Shown here piece by piece: positions 5,906-10,189 of a DNA stretch of 36,329 nt. The notes beneath the pieces were generated by a model. That model saw only the letters and a program-made list of their open reading frames with translations, was not told the origin of the DNA and did not search any database. This stretch comes from a virus (taxonomy: Duplodnaviria; Heunggongvirae; Uroviricota; Caudoviricetes). The position numbers and the translations under genes were made by a program. Location of the stretch: IMG/VR virus record IMGVR_UViG_2737471834_000007; one strand, given 5' to 3'. The first letter of the stretch is position 1, and each line of letters begins with the position of its first letter.

Positions 5906-6509
5906 CATCCCCCTCCGGCCAGCCAACAGGATACGCACGAATATCCGGCAGTGCGGTCAACCCTGCCACTTCTTCTTTCATCCGGCGCTGGCGTTCATGG
6001 ATTTTAAACCCCTGCATCACCATCGCCGCATTCATCGCAGTATCCAGTTGTATCAGCTCTTCCGGCGTCAGAGTGACATCCTGATTATCCGCATCCGTCC
6101 AGAAAAAATGCTCAGGCAACAGCCCGTTTCCTGCCACCGCAACTACCGGTGTCAGTCTGGACTGTGAAGCCTTTCCGGCATCCCAGCGATGACCACTGAA
6201 TTCAAAAACAAAACTGCTGTTCTCCTGGCTGTCACGCCAGCGACTGATTTCACCGTATTTCTGATTTCTGGCCTTTTCCAGTATCTCCTCTGTCACCACA
6301 AACGGCGTGACCTCACCCCAGGCCCCTGATATCAGCCCTGACCAGAGCCTTAACCCGAATTCTGTCGGGTCTGAAGCTCTGGCAGTATAAGGTACATATA
6401 CCCGCTGACTGTCATCAGAACGGTCTGCCATGAACACCTCACAGGTAATGCTGCCGTCTTCATTAAAACGGGCATTGCGCACGTCCGCTTCTGAATTCCT
6501 GGTATCCAT
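5898..6509 (-). CDS. Putative tail fibre assembly/chaperone protein for fibre 2 (203 aa)
   Basis: Immediately follows fibre gene 2 with a 1-nt TAATG overlap; position and size fit a fibre chaperone; ends in GWPEGDDE. Confidence 0.45.
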   Translation of the reverse strand: MDTRNSEADVRNARFNEDGSITCEVFMADRSDDSQRVYVPYTARASDPTEFGLRLWSGLISGAWGEVTPFVVTEEILEKARNQKYGEISRWRDSQENSSFVFEFSGHRWDAGKASQSRLTPVVAVAGNGLLPEHFFWTDADNQDVTLTPEELIQLDTAMNAAMVMQGFKIHERQRRMKEEVAGLTALPDIRAYPVGWPEGDDE

Positions 6510-8077
6510 TATTTCACCCTCAGAAAAAGCATTTTCTCTTCAGCTTCTGCATTTCCGCAGGCCATCCATATTCCTGACTGTACCGGGTCAAGCCGCTCCC
6601 CTGCCAGTTCATCTCCGTAACTTACCGCATCCTGAGAAGCACAGAACAGGTAACTCCCCACACCACCGGCTACCGGACGACCGGCAAACTGCCACCATGA
6701 AGAGGTACCCAGTCCACTGTAAGCCCTGGTGAATGCCTGCCCCATACAGTTAAGGAAAATCTGACCTGAAACATTCTCATTCGTCGGAACCTGCCACATC
6801 AGACCATACGCATAATTCCCCGCGGCACCCGGAACGGGGTGGTCTTCACAGGCAAAGGAACTGTTATATTTCAGTAACGGGAAATGAAGGTCAGAATACA
6901 TAAAACCATGAGCCAGAATACCAGTGAATTTTTTCGCAGTCTTTATCCCGTCTTCCGGGTAAACTCCGCTGGGACCCATGGGTCCCTGAGGCCCCTGAGG
7001 GCCGGTGGCTCCCCGGGCACCGGTATCACCTTTATCGCCTTTCTCACCTTTTTCTCCCTGCGGTCCGGTATCCCCCTGGTCACCCTTGTCTCCCTTTTCA
7101 CCACGTGGGCCCTGCGGGCCGGTCTCCCCCTGCGGTCCCGGCTCTCCCTGTGGTCCTGGCGTTTTAGCAATCTCCCTGGCCTCCTCCAGTGCCTTCAGCG
7201 CCCCCTGCTCATGTTCACCTGCTGTCGTGGCACTGTCTATTGCCTGGTTCGCTGACTGGCGTGTTTGTTCCACGGCCTCCTGATATGAGCATGTGGTTAT
7301 CCTCAAATCTTCCCATACACCGCTTTCTGTTCTGTGAGCTAACGGTGCAATATGACTGTGTTCATCGCATTCCGGAATGCTTTCGGCCAGGATCAGGCGA
7401 TATCGGGTGACGGGGTACCCCAGGACTGTGAAACCATCCACCCATGCCCGGATACAAATATAATCAGCACCTTCAGCAATAATGAGGGTTTCATCTTCAG
7501 TCTTTACCCTGAAGCCGGCAATATAGGCGATGCCACCGGTACAGGTCATCACATCATCCTTAACGGTGATGCGTCCACAGTCATTAATAAAAACGTGATG
7601 TCCGTAAAAATCGTGCAGTGTTTCGGCTCTTGTACTGGCTTCAGCTTTCAGCCATGAAGTGATATCCAGTTGCCAGCTCTGAGGGGGAACAGTAATATTC
7701 GCAGCCCTGGCCATTCCCTTATAAGCCAGGACAAAATTGCGTATTAATGTTTCGCCCTCCAGTTTTTGCCTTACCGGGGTGGTGATAATACCGCACAGTG
7801 TTCTGCCTGGCTGATGTACAAGACAAATACGGTTATATGTAAACTCCCTGACATCATGACCAATTGTCACGCTGCAGATAATGGCATCCTGATTGAGACG
7901 GCTGTATGTCAGCTCTGTGGCAGCAAATGTTATCTGTGAGTCTTCCGGATAACTATCCGTCAGCATTGACTCGTTGTCTGATAAAGTAAAAAGAATGGCA
8001 TCCGGTCTTGCCGGAATATTATCTGCAACGCAGTCAGCCATCCATTTTTCAAATGATTTGGTCAGCAGGGTGCTCAT
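6509..8077 (-). CDS. Tail fibre protein 2 (522 aa) with an internal collagen-like Gly-X-Y repeat
   Basis: N-terminal ~200 aa are homologous to fibre 1 (MST..T...EKW...PARPD); 21 consecutive Gly-X-Y triplets at aa 308-371; GGAG upstream of the ATG. Confidence 0.7.
6965..7156 (-). repeat. Collagen-like (Gly-X-Y)n coding repeat inside tail fibre 2
   Basis: [64 protein letters not shown]; the DNA is GC-rich and internally repetitive. Confidence 0.8.
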
Positions 8078-8096
8078 TTTTGATTATCTCCGGTTT

Positions 8097-8624
8097 TTAT
8101 TTTGTTTCCGGTACAGCAGGCCAGTTAATTGCCTCAAAGTTATCCTTATTATCAATGTCTGAAATATTCAGAGAATTAAGCTCACGGATATACATCATCC
8201 ACTGAGTGAGTTTAAGCCTGTCATCGTCACTGATTATTCCAAGACTGAGCTCTGTCTGCCAGTCACTGGTAATACTCCTGGCTTCTGACAGTAACCTGTT
8301 GCGTTGTGTTTCAGCCTGTTGCCGGTAATCAACAGGAACCGGTAATATCTCACCATCCCTGTAATACCAGCGAGCTTCAATACAGAACCCTTCAGGAAGT
8401 TCGTCAACCTCCACAATGGAGAAACCTGCCGGATAGAGTCGTGAAGCATCCTCCGCCATGGAGTAAATCACTCCGGTGTCCGGATGAATGCACAATTTAT
8501 ATTTCTTCGTGAATTTATTGACAGAATCATAAAAATCCTGACCATCTTCACTGCAGAAATACTGGATACCCTCACCATAAGGCATGTTTTCAGGGTAATA
8601 GCGTGAAACGTTTCGGAGTTCCAT
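8097..8624 (-). CDS. Tail fibre assembly protein for fibre 1 (about 175 aa from MELRNV)
   Basis: C-terminal LTQWMMYIRELNSLN...INWP resembles the conserved Tfa/gpG tail; AAGGGA SD 7 nt upstream of the ATG at 8624, which lies just past the fibre 1 stop. Confidence 0.65.
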   Translation of the reverse strand: MELRNVSRYYPENMPYGEGIQYFCSEDGQDFYDSVNKFTKKYKLCIHPDTGVIYSMAEDASRLYPAGFSIVEVDELPEGFCIEARWYYRDGEILPVPVDYRQQAETQRNRLLSEARSITSDWQTELSLGIISDDDRLKLTQWMMYIRELNSLNISDIDNKDNFEAINWPAVPETK

Positions 8625-8635
8625 AATGTTGTCCC

Positions 8636-10189
8636 TTAACCGGATATGGTGCGCCATGCACCATTAATATAAATCTGTTTTGCTTTGTAATAGACACCGC
8701 CAATATTATCTGCAGAATGTGAGCCAGTTTCCTGAACGTTAATACCAGAAAGCACACAACCTGCCGGTGCACGGAATGTCCAGGAAATTTCATTACCACC
8801 TGGATTGTGAAAGGTTTCGTTTGTGTACTGTTCGTTCTGTACATAGCGGGCATCAGCTGCAGCCTGCGTCATTCCCGCTGAAATGGTGATATCCTTCGTA
8901 CCATCAAATGCAACACCATTTATTTTTCGTGCGTTCTGTAATTTTGTGGCGCTGCCGGCATTACCGGTTGTGTTCTGGTTGCCCTGGGTATTCACACCCG
9001 GGAGACTGATATCTCCTGAACCATCAAAACTGACGCCGCCGATTTTCCTGCTGTTTTTTAATTTTGTAGCCGTACCTGAATTGCCTGATATATCGGTGAT
9101 TGTAATATCTTCCGACAGTTCCTTACCGTTGACTTTCCTTGTTGACGGAACGCGACGTTTTGCCTCATCCATAGCGTTCTTTACGGCTTTGGGAGTGGCG
9201 GCACGATCTTCCCTGTCACTGTCTGTATCACTGCAATATTGCGCAAATCCCTTTTCGTCCAGCGTGGCGTCAGGGTGATTGCGTGAGCGCACGTGGGCTG
9301 CCAGTGCATCGCTGTTTTCTTCATCAGGTGTCTGTGGACGGACATCCTCAACATGACCGGCAGATAATACTGCCAGTGGTGCAACATAATGTCTGAATCC
9401 GTTATTATCGGTGTACTCTTCAGTTACCGGGCGCGTATTCATATTCCCGGCGTCTGGTTGTCTGGCAGTAAATACAAATACCGTTTTCCAGCAGCCTGAT
9501 ACATGTCCATGCCAGCTGGCATCAATCAGAATGATGTCATTTTCAGAGGCGGTAAGTGTGAAGGGCTCCGTTAACTGAACACGCAGGCCACCGATATAAG
9601 CCACACCGGCACTGATGGTAGCTGTGCTGTTAATGGCATCGTAACTGACATGCAGGCTGTTACCCAGACATGCGGCATCACCATAGTAATCAAAGGCCAG
9701 CAGACGACGCGATTCATCCATTCCTGTCAGTCTGGCAGTAAAATCAATCTGCCAGACGTCAGCGGTGACGTTTACCTGCATGGCTTCGGCTGCCCCTTCG
9801 AATTCCATGGCGAATGTGCGAATCAGGTTATTGCCCTGAATGCCATTGGCGGTCCTGATTTTCTGCTGTAGTGGTGTATGGGCAATCATACACAGTACAT
9901 GGCTTTCTTCGTGATACAGCCCAATCCAGTTATATTCAAAATCACCTGCGGTGGTGTCCAGAATCACGGAAAATGCAACCGTATCAGGTTCAAGCATGCC
10001 GAACTGTGTTACCGGAACGCGGCAGACAATATATTTTTCATCCGGCAGTTCTTCATCCACCGATATCGGTGCACTGATATCCATATCCGGAATGCAGGCA
10101 AAGATAAAAGTGTCCGGTCTGGCCGGTTCGTTGCTGATAAGCTGGTTTGCACACCAGTGCTCATATTGTCGCGTAATTACCGTGCTCAT
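8636..10189 (-). CDS. Tail fibre protein 1 (517 aa)
   Basis: Collar motif SRNHPDATLDEKGFAQ...AATPKAVKNAMDEA matches the P2 gpH/lambda Stf-type conserved region as recalled from memory; two ~36-aa fibre repeats follow; N-terminus shared with fibre 2. Confidence 0.7.
   Translation of the reverse strand: MSTVITRQYEHWCANQLISNEPARPDTFIFACIPDMDISAPISVDEELPDEKYIVCRVPVTQFGMLEPDTVAFSVILDTTAGDFEYNWIGLYHEESHVLCMIAHTPLQQKIRTANGIQGNNLIRTFAMEFEGAAEAMQVNVTADVWQIDFTARLTGMDESRRLLAFDYYGDAACLGNSLHVSYDAINSTATISAGVAYIGGLRVQLTEPFTLTASENDIILIDASWHGHVSGCWKTVFVFTARQPDAGNMNTRPVTEEYTDNNGFRHYVAPLAVLSAGHVEDVRPQTPDEENSDALAAHVRSRNHPDATLDEKGFAQYCSDTDSDREDRAATPKAVKNAMDEAKRRVPSTRKVNGKELSEDITITDISGNSGTATKLKNSRKIGGVSFDGSGDISLPGVNTQGNQNTTGNAGSATKLQNARKINGVAFDGTKDITISAGMTQAAADARYVQNEQYTNETFHNPGGNEISWTFRAPAGCVLSGINVQETGSHSADNIGGVYYKAKQIYINGAWRTISG
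8879..9109 (-). repeat. Tandem ~36-aa tail fibre repeat (two copies) in fibre 1
   Basis: SGNSGTATKLKNSRKIGGVSFDGSGDISLP versus TGNAGSATKLQNARKINGVAFDGTKDITIS. Confidence 0.6.

What the first reader, a model, noticed from the sequence alone, without database searches (positions are those of the whole stretch)
6509..10189. Two tandem tail fibre plus chaperone modules with shared N-termini and different receptor-binding ends
Fibre 1 (517 aa) and fibre 2 (522 aa) share a homologous N-terminal domain but have unrelated distal parts: fibre 1 has the P2 H/Stf-type collar and two ~36-aa fibre repeats, fibre 2 has a 21-triplet collagen-like stretch. Each is followed by its own chaperone gene. Both are co-oriented with no invertase or inverted repeats, so this is not a Mu G-segment-type switch. 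It suggests simultaneous dual receptor specificity; the collagen repeat is also a likely site for length variation.
Basis: partly seen in the sequence, partly recalled or inferred. Interest (0 to 1): 0.55.

Follow-up and report, generated by a model that had tools for sequence, protein, structure and literature searches.

The report
Two-fibre locus of HP1-like prophage
An E. coli prophage of the HP1/P2 type carries two complete, co-oriented tail-fibre genes with related baseplate anchors but unrelated tips; a whole lineage of Escherichia prophages shares this layout, which probably gives each virus particle two ways of recognising a host.

Summary
On the minus strand lie fibre 1 (8636-10189, 517 aa), a Caudo_TAP chaperone (8097-8657), fibre 2 (6509-8077, 522 aa), a DUF4376 chaperone (5898-6509, just outside the reported range) and a DUF1353 gene (5525-5905).

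- **Shared anchors, different tips.** The N-termini are homologous (29% over 224 aa, E 5e-29). The distal parts are unrelated. The window has no invertase and no meaningful inverted repeats.
- **A lineage trait.** All 20 close IMG/VR relatives that reach this position show the same layout, as do three Escherichia genomes inspected. The type-B anchor occurs in 49 of 5426 complete E. coli genomes. All 67 deposited phage genomes that match have one such fibre.
- **Old paralogues.** The two anchors form separate lineages, both under purifying selection (dN/dS 0.07 and 0.22).
- **Two slots.** Slot 1 is conservative and P2 H/G-like. Slot 2 is hypervariable.
- **Recent import.** Here, the distal 245 aa of slot 2 plus both downstream genes are 96% identical in DNA to side-tail-fibre cassettes of lambdoid E. 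coli prophages.
- **Collagen spacer.** It ranges from 10 to 47 triplets in sister fibres.

Most likely both fibres are co-expressed and mounted together. This is inferred, not shown. I rate it a new variant of a known kind, of moderate interest.

The parts
10195..10821 (-). Baseplate wedge protein (P2 gpI / HP1 orf30-like), immediately upstream of fibre 1
   Evidence: PF09684 Tail_P2_I; phrog_1228 tail protein E 3e-77
8636..10189 (-). Fibre 1 (slot 1), 517 aa, P2 H / Mu S-like fibre
   Evidence: ORF; PF12571 + PF03406; phrog_8239 tail fibre E 2e-93; aa 411-517 match the phiTE short tail fibre 9cuy_c at E 5e-15, and aa 305-387 match Mu fibre S 5yvq
9719..10189 (-). Type-A baseplate anchor of fibre 1 (aa 1-157)
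   Evidence: PF12571 82 bits; 69-73% identical in relatives; dN/dS median 0.065; distances track J and I (r 0.80-0.92)
9146..9265 (-). PF03406 fibre repeat ('collar') of fibre 1, aa 309-348
8864..9088 (-). Two ~35-aa shaft repeats of fibre 1 (aa 368-402 and 408-442)
   Evidence: 57% identity, E 3e-14
8097..8657 (-). Chaperone 1, Caudo_TAP family (lambda Tfa / P2 G type); the start may be the internal ATG at 8624
   Evidence: PF02413 E 5e-21; phrog_136 tail fibre assembly E 2e-56
6509..8077 (-). Fibre 2 (slot 2), 522 aa, mosaic fibre
   Evidence: ORF with GGAG 8 nt upstream of the ATG; phrog_33169 and phrog_13714 at aa 1-145
7643..8077 (-). Type-B baseplate anchor of fibre 2 (aa 1-145)
   Evidence: PF12571 20.4 bits here, 25.7-45.6 bits in nine orthologues; 44 invariant positions in 13 orthologues; dN/dS median 0.22; separate clade from all type-A and single-fibre anchors
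6968..7156 (-). Collagen-like spacer, 21 G-X-Y triplets (aa 308-370)
   Evidence: only degenerate 9- and 18-nt DNA periodicity
6512..6964 (-). Distal tip domain of fibre 2 (aa 372-522), beta-rich, probable receptor-binding domain
5364..7247 (.). Segment shared at 94-96% DNA identity with side-tail-fibre loci of lambdoid E. coli prophages: fibre 2 from about aa 278, DUF4376, DUF1353 and 160 nt downstream
5898..6509 (-). Chaperone 2, DUF4376 family; its start codon overlaps the fibre 2 stop (ATAATG)
   Evidence: PF14301 E 3e-19; phrog_1141; named a tail fibre chaperone in Alteromonas phages V22/A5 (PMC10579305) and a putative RBP chaperone in Campylobacter phages (PMC10877375)
5525..5905 (-). 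DUF1353 gene, third gene of the slot-2 cassette (the ORF can be read from GTG at 5938)
   Evidence: PF07087 E 2e-33; phrog_1158 'tail assembly chaperone'; travels with the cassette in lambdoid prophages
5494..5517 (.). 10-bp hairpin just after DUF1353, part of the imported segment
4634..5392 (-). HP1 orf33-like protein (likely start ATG at 5338); co-varies with the type-B anchor
   Evidence: phrog_1677 unknown function; distance correlation r 0.76 with the type-B anchor

Best explanation
This is the host-recognition locus of an E. coli prophage of the HP1 type (Peduoviridae), from a lineage that has two tail-fibre slots instead of one.

Both fibre genes sit in the same tightly packed late tail operon, between the wedge genes (J, I) and the remaining baseplate genes (orf33-35 homologues), so they are made together. 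Each polypeptide is trimerised by its own downstream chaperone: Caudo_TAP for fibre 1, and DUF4376, perhaps with DUF1353, for fibre 2. Each attaches to the baseplate through its own version of the PF12571-type N-terminal anchor.

The two anchors are old paralogues that have been kept apart. I therefore think they occupy two different docking positions, giving six fibres of each kind. The virion would then display two receptor-binding tips at once.

Slot 1 is a conservative P2 H/G-like fibre. Slot 2 is a plug-in position whose distal part is exchanged freely. In this phage the collagen spacer, the tip and the chaperone genes of slot 2 were recently taken from a lambdoid prophage side-tail-fibre cassette.

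**Shown:** gene content, homology, conservation, selection and the recombination joints. **Inferred:** co-assembly on one virion, separate docking sites and two receptors.
For: **Prophage type**
- Complete HP1/P2-type prophage: integrase, Cox, GPA, Ogr, portal, terminase, P2 capsid, HP1 Orf24 tube, DUF2586 sheath, J, I and HP1_ORF34.

**Both genes look functional**
- Anchors are homologous at E 5e-29.
- Both ORFs are intact. There are 19 nt between the TAP1 stop and the fibre 2 start, with a GGAG upstream. The fibre 2 stop overlaps the DUF4376 start.
- No terminator-like site on the gene strand between the two fibres, and promoter-like sites are at chance level.

**Conservation**
- Of 24 IMG/VR relatives with gpI at least 73% identical, 20 reach the slot-2 position. 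All 20 have a type-A fibre, a TAP, then a type-B fibre.
- Same layout in E. coli E7-1N7 and EC42405 and in E. albertii NBRC 107761.
- dN/dS is 0.065 for anchor A and 0.22 for anchor B.
- Type-B anchors form one clade outside all type-A and single-fibre anchors. A-B identity is 31-39%.

**Hints of separate docking**
- Anchor A distances track I and J (r 0.92 and 0.80). Anchor B tracks orf33 (r 0.76) and not I, J or anchor A (r 0.28-0.33). The distal part of fibre 2 is shuffled independently of both.

**Precedent and chaperone**
- Simple Mu/P2-type baseplates can carry two fibre sets, as in Sf14 and in the 12-fibre Pam3 (PMC11821841).
- DUF4376 proteins are named tail-fibre chaperones in Alteromonas phages.
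Against: - No virion, expression or adsorption data exist for this prophage.
- The wedge proteins J and I, and orf33, have the same lengths as in single-fibre relatives (Yersinia phage vB_YenM_324, Cronobacter phage ESSI-2). No extra adaptor domain is visible.
- The anchor-orf33 co-variation rests on 16-18 non-independent loci. It could reflect joint descent or linkage rather than contact.
- A hairpin imported with the cassette (5494-5517) lies before essential baseplate genes and could lower their expression.
- In three relatives (L014, L017, L049) the slot-2 ORF stops at 285 aa, so slot 2 is not always intact.
- The window's own fibre 2 scores just under the Pfam threshold for PF12571 (20.4 against 23 bits).
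Confidence: 0.5

Rival explanations
1. Both fibres are functional and co-expressed, but their related anchors compete for the same six docking sites. Particles would then carry a random mixture, or mostly one kind. That gives dual specificity at the level of the population (bet-hedging) rather than a fixed six-plus-six arrangement.
For: - Both anchors belong to the same domain family.
- No additional adaptor gene or enlarged wedge protein distinguishes two-fibre from single-fibre relatives.
Against: - The two anchor classes are only 31-39% identical and have stayed separate throughout the lineage.
- Anchor A tracks I and J, whereas anchor B tracks orf33. That pattern is unexpected if both bind the same surface.
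- Simple baseplates with twelve fibres are known.
Confidence: 0.27
2. One of the two fibres is a non-functional passenger: a relic of recombination, or a moron that is not built into particles. The phage would effectively have one specificity.
For: - PGAP annotates the second fibre as pseudogene fragments in two RefSeq genomes.
- In L014, L017 and L049 the slot-2 ORF ends at 285 aa.
- The imported hairpin suggests a recent, perhaps not yet optimised, insertion.
Against: - The ORFs that PGAP calls broken are intact at 735 and 679 aa.
- All 20 informative relatives keep a type-B anchor.
- Anchor B has dN/dS 0.22 and 44 invariant residues.
- Fibre 2 here has a good ribosome-binding site, and its chaperone is translationally coupled to it.
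Confidence: 0.1
3. Fibre 2 does not dock on the baseplate by itself. Instead it branches from fibre 1 or sits elsewhere on the tail, as in branched fibres of some T5-like phages.
For: Nothing direct. No solved structure covers either anchor, so the docking partner is unknown.
Against: - Fibre 2 carries the same kind of N-terminal anchor as the sole fibre of single-fibre relatives.
- Fibre 1 is conserved in length and type whether or not the slot-2 distal part changes.
Confidence: 0.08
4. The locus is an alternative-expression switch, by DNA inversion or phase variation, so that only one fibre is made at a time as in Mu, P1 or some P2-like phages.
For: None found.
Against: - No serine or other invertase apart from the prophage integrase.
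- Only short, imperfect inverted repeats.
- Both genes and both chaperones are co-oriented and complete.
- Collagen-repeat changes would be in frame.
Confidence: 0.02

Closest known systems
HP1 orf31/orf32 and P2 gpH/gpG (single fibre plus assembly protein of Peduoviridae)
   Same: - Same operon position after gpJ/gpI.
- Same PF12571-type anchor.
- PF03406 repeat and Caudo_TAP chaperone in slot 1.
- The rest of the prophage is HP1-like gene for gene.
   Different: - The deposited HP1-like phages have one fibre. All 67 matching records in the phage collection show one place each, at under 31% identity to anchor B.
- Here a second fibre with a paralogous anchor and a different chaperone family follows the first.
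Mu G segment / P1 C segment invertible fibre genes
   Same: Two alternative distal fibre specificities, each with its own chaperone, in a contractile-tail phage with a simple baseplate.
   Different: - No invertase, no crossover repeats, and no shared constant N-terminal exon.
- Both genes are complete and co-oriented, so both can be expressed together.
Shigella phage Sf14 (Mooglevirus) with two fibre sets, and Pam3 with twelve fibres, on simple Mu-like baseplates
   Same: - Two adjacent fibre genes whose products share a similar N-terminal baseplate-binding region.
- Simple wedge of the J/I type.
- Both fibres seen on the same particle in Sf14 (PMC11821841).
   Different: - Different phage families: lytic Ounavirinae and a cyanophage against a temperate HP1-like prophage.
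- No sequence relationship was tested or found here.
- Co-assembly is shown for Sf14 and only inferred here.
Lambdoid side tail fibres with collagen-like shaft (PF08400 N-terminus), followed by DUF4376 and DUF1353 genes
   Same: The distal 245 aa of fibre 2, DUF4376, DUF1353 and 160 nt downstream are 94-96% identical in DNA to these loci in cattle- and buffalo-associated E. coli.
   Different: - The proximal 277 aa of fibre 2 are an HP1-type anchor plus a second domain, not the Stf N-terminus.
- The cassette therefore serves a contractile-tail baseplate here.
Alteromonas phage V22 gp26/gp27 (fibre plus DUF4376 chaperone)
   Same: A DUF4376 protein encoded directly downstream of the fibre.
   Different: - No similarity in the fibre itself.
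- Whether the chaperone here stays on the fibre tip as a cap is unknown.
T4 long and short tail fibres
   Same: Two fibre types on one contractile-tail virion, allowing two receptor steps.
   Different: From my own knowledge, T4 fibres have unrelated N-termini and dock on dedicated adaptor proteins of a complex baseplate. Here the anchors are paralogues and no extra adaptor is evident.

Membership tests
HP1-like Peduoviridae prophage | Gene set and order: P2-type capsid and terminase, HP1 Orf24 tube, DUF2586 sheath, tape measure, DUF2590, J, I, fibre, orf33, HP1_ORF34, orf35 | tested here: met
   Pfam and PHROG hits. Same order as Yersinia phage vB_YenM_324 and Cronobacter phage ESSI-2.
PF12571 tail-collar fibre N-terminal anchor | Fibre 1 scores above the Pfam gathering threshold | tested here: met
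   82.1 bits against a cut-off of 23.
PF12571 tail-collar fibre N-terminal anchor | Fibre 2 scores above the Pfam gathering threshold | tested here: inconclusive
   20.4 bits against 23 for the window protein. Nine orthologous type-B fibres score 25.7-45.6 bits, and the pairwise E-value to fibre 1 is 5e-29.
Invertible fibre switch (Mu G, P1 C type) | Site-specific invertase gene next to the fibre genes | tested here: not met
   No resolvase/invertase domain in the 39 ORFs scanned across the window.
Invertible fibre switch (Mu G, P1 C type) | Inverted crossover repeats flanking oppositely oriented alternative distal exons | tested here: not met
   Longest inverted repeats are 14-26 nt at 73-93% complementarity and are not placed at gene borders. 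All genes are co-oriented.
Caudo_TAP fibre assembly chaperone (lambda Tfa / P2 G) | PF02413 match, and a position directly downstream of the fibre | tested here: met
   75.7 bits against 22.1. The gene overlaps or abuts the end of fibre 1.
DUF4376 fibre chaperone | PF14301 match, and a position directly downstream of the fibre | tested here: met
   70 bits against 25. Its start codon overlaps the fibre 2 stop.
DUF4376 fibre chaperone | Chaperone activity on the cognate fibre | not testable with these tools
   Known only by analogy to Alteromonas phages V22/A5.
Collagen-like phage fibre | Long uninterrupted G-X-Y run | tested here: met
   21 triplets at aa 308-370. PF01391 39.9 bits against 27.2.
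Two-fibre simple-baseplate myoviruses (Sf14 type) | Two fibre genes whose products share a related baseplate-binding N-terminus | tested here: met
.
Two-fibre simple-baseplate myoviruses (Sf14 type) | Both fibres present on the same particle | not testable with these tools
   Needs virion proteomics or cryo-EM.
T4-type long/short fibre system | Separate adaptor proteins and unrelated fibre N-termini | tested here: not met
   The anchors are paralogues. There is no extra baseplate gene relative to single-fibre relatives.

The most novel reading that the evidence does not exclude
The HP1-type baseplate of this lineage has a second, dedicated docking position for the type-B anchor, formed by or dependent on the orf33-like protein. 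Anchor B and orf33 evolve three to five times faster than the rest of the baseplate, and they co-vary. The lineage would then own a self-contained plug-in socket (anchor B plus orf33) into which tips from sipho-, podo- and myovirus fibres can be inserted without touching the conserved first fibre. That would make a twelve-fibre minimal contractile tail with one stable and one rapidly exchangeable specificity.
Probability: 0.3. Interest if true: 0.65.

Novelty: new variant of a known kind. Interest (0 to 1): 0.5.

Why it matters
Phages that carry two receptor-binding proteins are well known. P2/HP1-type phages and the tailocins derived from them, however, are treated as one-fibre machines that change specificity by swapping or inverting the distal fibre part.

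A lineage with two paralogous anchors would show how a minimal baseplate can gain a second specificity without a switch. One anchor stays tied to a conservative fibre. The other is tied to a freely exchanged tip.

- **Engineering:** it would offer a natural scaffold for phages or tailocins with two targets.
- **Mobility of tips:** a receptor-binding tip together with its chaperone genes has moved almost unchanged between a siphovirus and a myovirus in livestock-associated E. coli.
- **Annotation:** RefSeq pipelines split the intact second fibre into pseudogene fragments. That may be why the arrangement has gone unnoticed.

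Tried and rejected
- **Full-length fibre 2 homology search:** swamped by collagen-containing proteins, with only about a dozen useful hits.
- **Tip domain alone in the word-indexed search:** one hit only. The exhaustive HMMER search was needed instead.
- **First AF2 model of the tip, 11-sequence alignment:** unusable at pLDDT 34. A 22-sequence alignment gave pLDDT 79.
- **Sequence searches of the PDB:** nothing for either anchor, DUF4376, orf33 or orf34.
- **Species-representative genome scan with the type-B anchor:** one locus only, in E. 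albertii.
- **Profile search with the anchor:** 11 mostly partial proteins.
- **Literature searches:** no description found for two-fibre P2/HP1-like phages, a second tail fibre in Peduoviridae, or collagen-like side tail fibres.
- **Invertible switch, tRNA-linked features and tandem-repeat slippage:** looked for and not found.
- **Tailocin reading:** rejected because head, portal, terminase, replication and integrase genes are all present.

Full report
**What is in the window**

The window is a complete HP1/P2-type prophage. At the right end are an integrase, a Cox-like protein, a repressor, a GPA replication protein, a Dam methylase and Ogr. In the middle are portal, terminase, scaffold, P2-type capsid and the head-completion gene. 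Towards the left, on the minus strand, lies the tail operon: tail-completion R and S, DUF2586 sheath, HP1 Orf24 tube, M15 peptidase, tape measure, DUF2590, baseplate J and P2-I-like protein. The right flank is E. coli chpS/chpB, at 99% identity or more in 1892 genomes, so the host is E. coli.

**The observation**

Downstream of gpI (10195-10821), all on the minus strand, lie:
- Fibre 1 (8636-10189, 517 aa).
- A Caudo_TAP chaperone (8097-8657).
- Fibre 2 (6509-8077, 522 aa).
- A DUF4376 protein (5898-6509).
- A DUF1353 protein (5525-5905).
- Homologues of HP1 orf33, orf34 and orf35.

The two fibres align over their first 224 residues at 29% identity, E 5e-29, and nowhere else.

Fibre 1 has PF12571 at aa 3-157 and the PF03406 fibre repeat at aa 309-348. 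Two shaft repeats, aa 368-402 and 408-442, are 57% identical. Its tip is related to the short tail fibre of Pectobacterium phage phiTE (9cuy, E 5e-15) and its shaft to Mu fibre S.

Fibre 2 has 21 uninterrupted G-X-Y triplets at aa 308-370, followed by a 150-aa tip. The two chaperones are unrelated. The only corrections are that the second chaperone lies just outside the stated range, and that the second module has a third gene.

**Not a switch, and not a pseudogene**

No invertase domain occurs in the 39 ORFs scanned across the window. The inverted repeats in 4000-12100 are short, imperfect and unrelated to gene borders.

Both fibre ORFs are intact. Fibre 2 has a GGAG 8 nt before its ATG, only 19 nt after the TAP1 stop, and its stop overlaps the DUF4376 start. 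No terminator-like site lies on the gene strand between the fibres, and promoter-like sites are at chance level, 11 found against 11.2 expected. Co-transcription is thus the straightforward reading, but it is an inference.

**A lineage trait**

A scan of IMG/VR with the gpI protein returned 43 loci. One is the same phage. Of the 24 loci whose gpI is at least 73% identical, 20 extend to the slot-2 position. All 20 have the same order: I, a fibre with a type-A anchor (about 69% identical to fibre 1), a Caudo_TAP gene, a fibre with a type-B anchor (47-56% identical to fibre 2), a variable or absent chaperone, then orf33-35.

The same layout is present in E. coli E7-1N7, E. coli EC42405 and E. albertii NBRC 107761. 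DNA of a type-B anchor is found in 49 of 5426 complete E. coli genomes.

By contrast:
- The more distant IMG/VR relatives (gpI 54-71% identical) have one anchor-bearing fibre.
- So do the cultured relatives Yersinia phage vB_YenM_324 and Cronobacter phage ESSI-2.
- In the collection of 50,697 deposited phage genomes, the 40 of the 67 matching records that are listed show a single match each, and all 67 are below 31% identity to anchor B.
- The type-B profile search returned 11 proteins. Seven are named E. coli, with single entries named Yersinia kristensenii and Salmonella and two unnamed.

I found no description of this arrangement in the searchable literature.

**Two old, separately maintained anchors**

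In a tree of the first 150 residues, all type-B anchors form one clade. It lies outside a clade that holds both the type-A anchors and the anchors of single-fibre relatives. Mean identities are A-B 35%, A-single 49% and B-single 32%.

Both classes are under purifying selection. Median pairwise dN/dS is 0.065 for A and 0.22 for B. Thirteen type-B anchors share 44 invariant positions, and their conservation ends abruptly after PPQSWQxD at about aa 138-145. Nine type-B orthologues pass the Pfam threshold for PF12571. The window's own copy is just below it, at 20.4 against 23 bits.

**Two different kinds of slot**

Slot 1 is conservative. All type-A fibres are 517-622 aa, end in the same kind of tip (...INGxWxxVxS/G) and are followed by a Caudo_TAP gene.

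Slot 2 is hypervariable. Lengths run from 350 to 842 aa, there are at least seven different C-terminal ends, most distal parts have no Pfam domain, and the partner is sometimes DUF4376 and sometimes nothing.

**Slot 2 of this phage is a recent import**

Window 5364-7247 is 95.9% identical in DNA to a lambdoid prophage of an E. coli strain from buffalo milk, and about 94% identical to seven others, mostly of bovine origin. There it lies directly after gpJ, as the distal part of a 573-aa side tail fibre with an Stf-type N-terminus, followed by DUF4376 and DUF1353.

At protein level fibre 2 is 93% identical to that fibre over aa 271-522. The collagen run and the last 63 residues are identical, and 13 of the 17 differences fall in aa 394-459 of the tip.
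- The left joint is inside the fibre, at about aa 278.
- The right joint is about 25 nt before the probable start of orf33.

Fibre 2 is thus a three-part mosaic: anchor B (aa 1-145), a second domain shared with fibre 1 (to about aa 277), and the lambdoid distal module.

**The tip and the collagen spacer**

The tip family is small, with 25 clusters at E 1e-3 or better among 1.84 billion representative proteins. It occurs behind Stf-type and PF12571-type N-termini, and behind a third type that, from my own reading of its first residues, looks T7-fibre-like. It is often preceded by a conserved ...[11 protein letters not shown] junction.

The collagen spacer is strikingly length-polymorphic in the sister fibres of lambdoid prophages. 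It has 10, 22, 28, 34, 37, 41 or 47 triplets between near-identical flanks, mostly in steps of six triplets, and it is absent from some family members. The two closest copies have the same length as here. The DNA here shows only degenerate 9- and 18-nt periodicity. Length variation is therefore a property of the family rather than something demonstrated for this gene.

**The chaperones**

DUF4376 proteins encoded directly after the fibre gene are named tail fibre chaperones in Alteromonas phages V22 and A5. They are regarded as putative receptor-binding-protein chaperones in Campylobacter phages. DUF1353 is labelled 'tail assembly chaperone' only by a PHROG name, and its role is open.

**How it most likely works**

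I think both fibres are made together and mounted on the same baseplate. Simple Mu/P2-type baseplates can hold more than six fibres. The Sf14 paper reports two fibre sets with similar N-terminal binding regions on one particle. It also cites Pam3, which has twelve fibres in two non-equivalent positions per wedge.

A comparison of 18 complete two-fibre loci gives a hint about docking. Within the 16 close ones, mean amino-acid distances are:

| Protein | Mean distance |
|---|---|
| J | 0.033 |
| Anchor A | 0.042 |
| I | 0.047 |
| orf35 | 0.048 |
| orf34 | 0.050 |
| orf33 | 0.150 |
| Anchor B | 0.228 |

Anchor A distances follow I and J (r 0.92 and 0.80). Anchor B follows orf33 (r 0.76, Mantel p 0.0005) but not J, I or anchor A (r 0.28-0.33). 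The distal part that lies between anchor B and orf33 is exchanged independently of both.

This pattern fits a second docking position that involves orf33. It could also come from joint descent or linkage, and the loci are few and not independent. Against a dedicated socket, orf33, I and J are no larger than in single-fibre relatives.

The main rival is that both anchors compete for the same six sites and produce mixed particles. A relic reading is unlikely, given the conservation and selection. A switch is excluded.

**Verdict**

The finding is real and its interpretation is essentially right. It is better described as the conserved two-slot host-recognition locus of an Escherichia lineage of HP1-like prophages. 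That lineage appears to be unrepresented among deposited phage genomes and is partly mis-annotated in RefSeq. In this phage, slot 2 carries a recently acquired lambdoid fibre-tip cassette.

It is a new variant of a known kind (multi-fibre phages). Interest is moderate. It would rise if the second socket were confirmed.

Noticed in passing
L050 6001-8040 (E. coli EC42405) and L046 7586-9793 (E. coli E7-1N7): RefSeq/PGAP annotates the second fibre as pseudogene fragments, one of them named 'shikimate transporter, incomplete'. The ORFs are in fact intact at 679 and 735 aa.
   Followed up: yes
window 5494-5517: A 10-bp hairpin lies 8 nt after the DUF1353 stop, with a T7 run on the plus strand and a weaker U tract on the gene strand. 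It arrived with the lambdoid cassette and now sits upstream of the baseplate genes orf33-35. It might attenuate their transcription.
   Followed up: partly
window 4634-5392 (orf33-like) and 7643-8077 (anchor B); loci L004-L025, L046, L049, L050: orf33 and the type-B anchor are three to five times more divergent than J, I, anchor A, orf34 and orf35. Their distance matrices correlate (r 0.76), while the fibre 2 distal part between them is shuffled independently.
   Followed up: partly
L030 11266-11850, L032 10621-11364, L034 10621-11364, L037 11257-12183: More distant relatives with a single anchor-bearing fibre have an extra 194-308 aa ORF between gpI and the fibre. The L032 copy matches the last 160 aa of phrog_33169, the 842-aa slot-2 fibre family. 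A second receptor-binding protein without a PF12571 anchor may therefore exist there.
   Followed up: partly
L014 12894-13751, L017 6659-8599, L049 8001 onwards (E. albertii): The slot-2 ORF stops at 285 aa in L014 and L017. L049 matches the L017 layout, judging from tblastn coordinates and the stop-scan. In L017 it is followed by a separate 352-aa ORF of an unknown-function family (phrog_8291). This is either a split fibre or a decayed slot.
   Followed up: no
window 6698-6898 (fibre 2 aa 394-459): Against the lambdoid copy L001, 13 of the 17 amino-acid differences fall in this stretch of the tip. The collagen run and the last 63 residues are identical. This suggests variable receptor-contact loops.
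   Followed up: partly
window 728-1746: A YafO-family toxin gene (728-1108) and an adjacent 212-aa ORF lie at the left end of the prophage beyond orf35. They are shared at 92% with many E. coli genomes. In one relative a Hok/Gef gene lies nearby.
   Followed up: no
proteins P0122-P0137 (relatives of the fibre 2 tip): The same tip domain sits behind Stf-type and PF12571-type N-termini, and behind a third N-terminus (MSIPVQTPFNLY...) that looks T7-fibre-like from my own knowledge. A conserved ...[11 protein letters not shown] motif precedes the collagen run in most of them and looks like a common recombination joint.
   Followed up: partly
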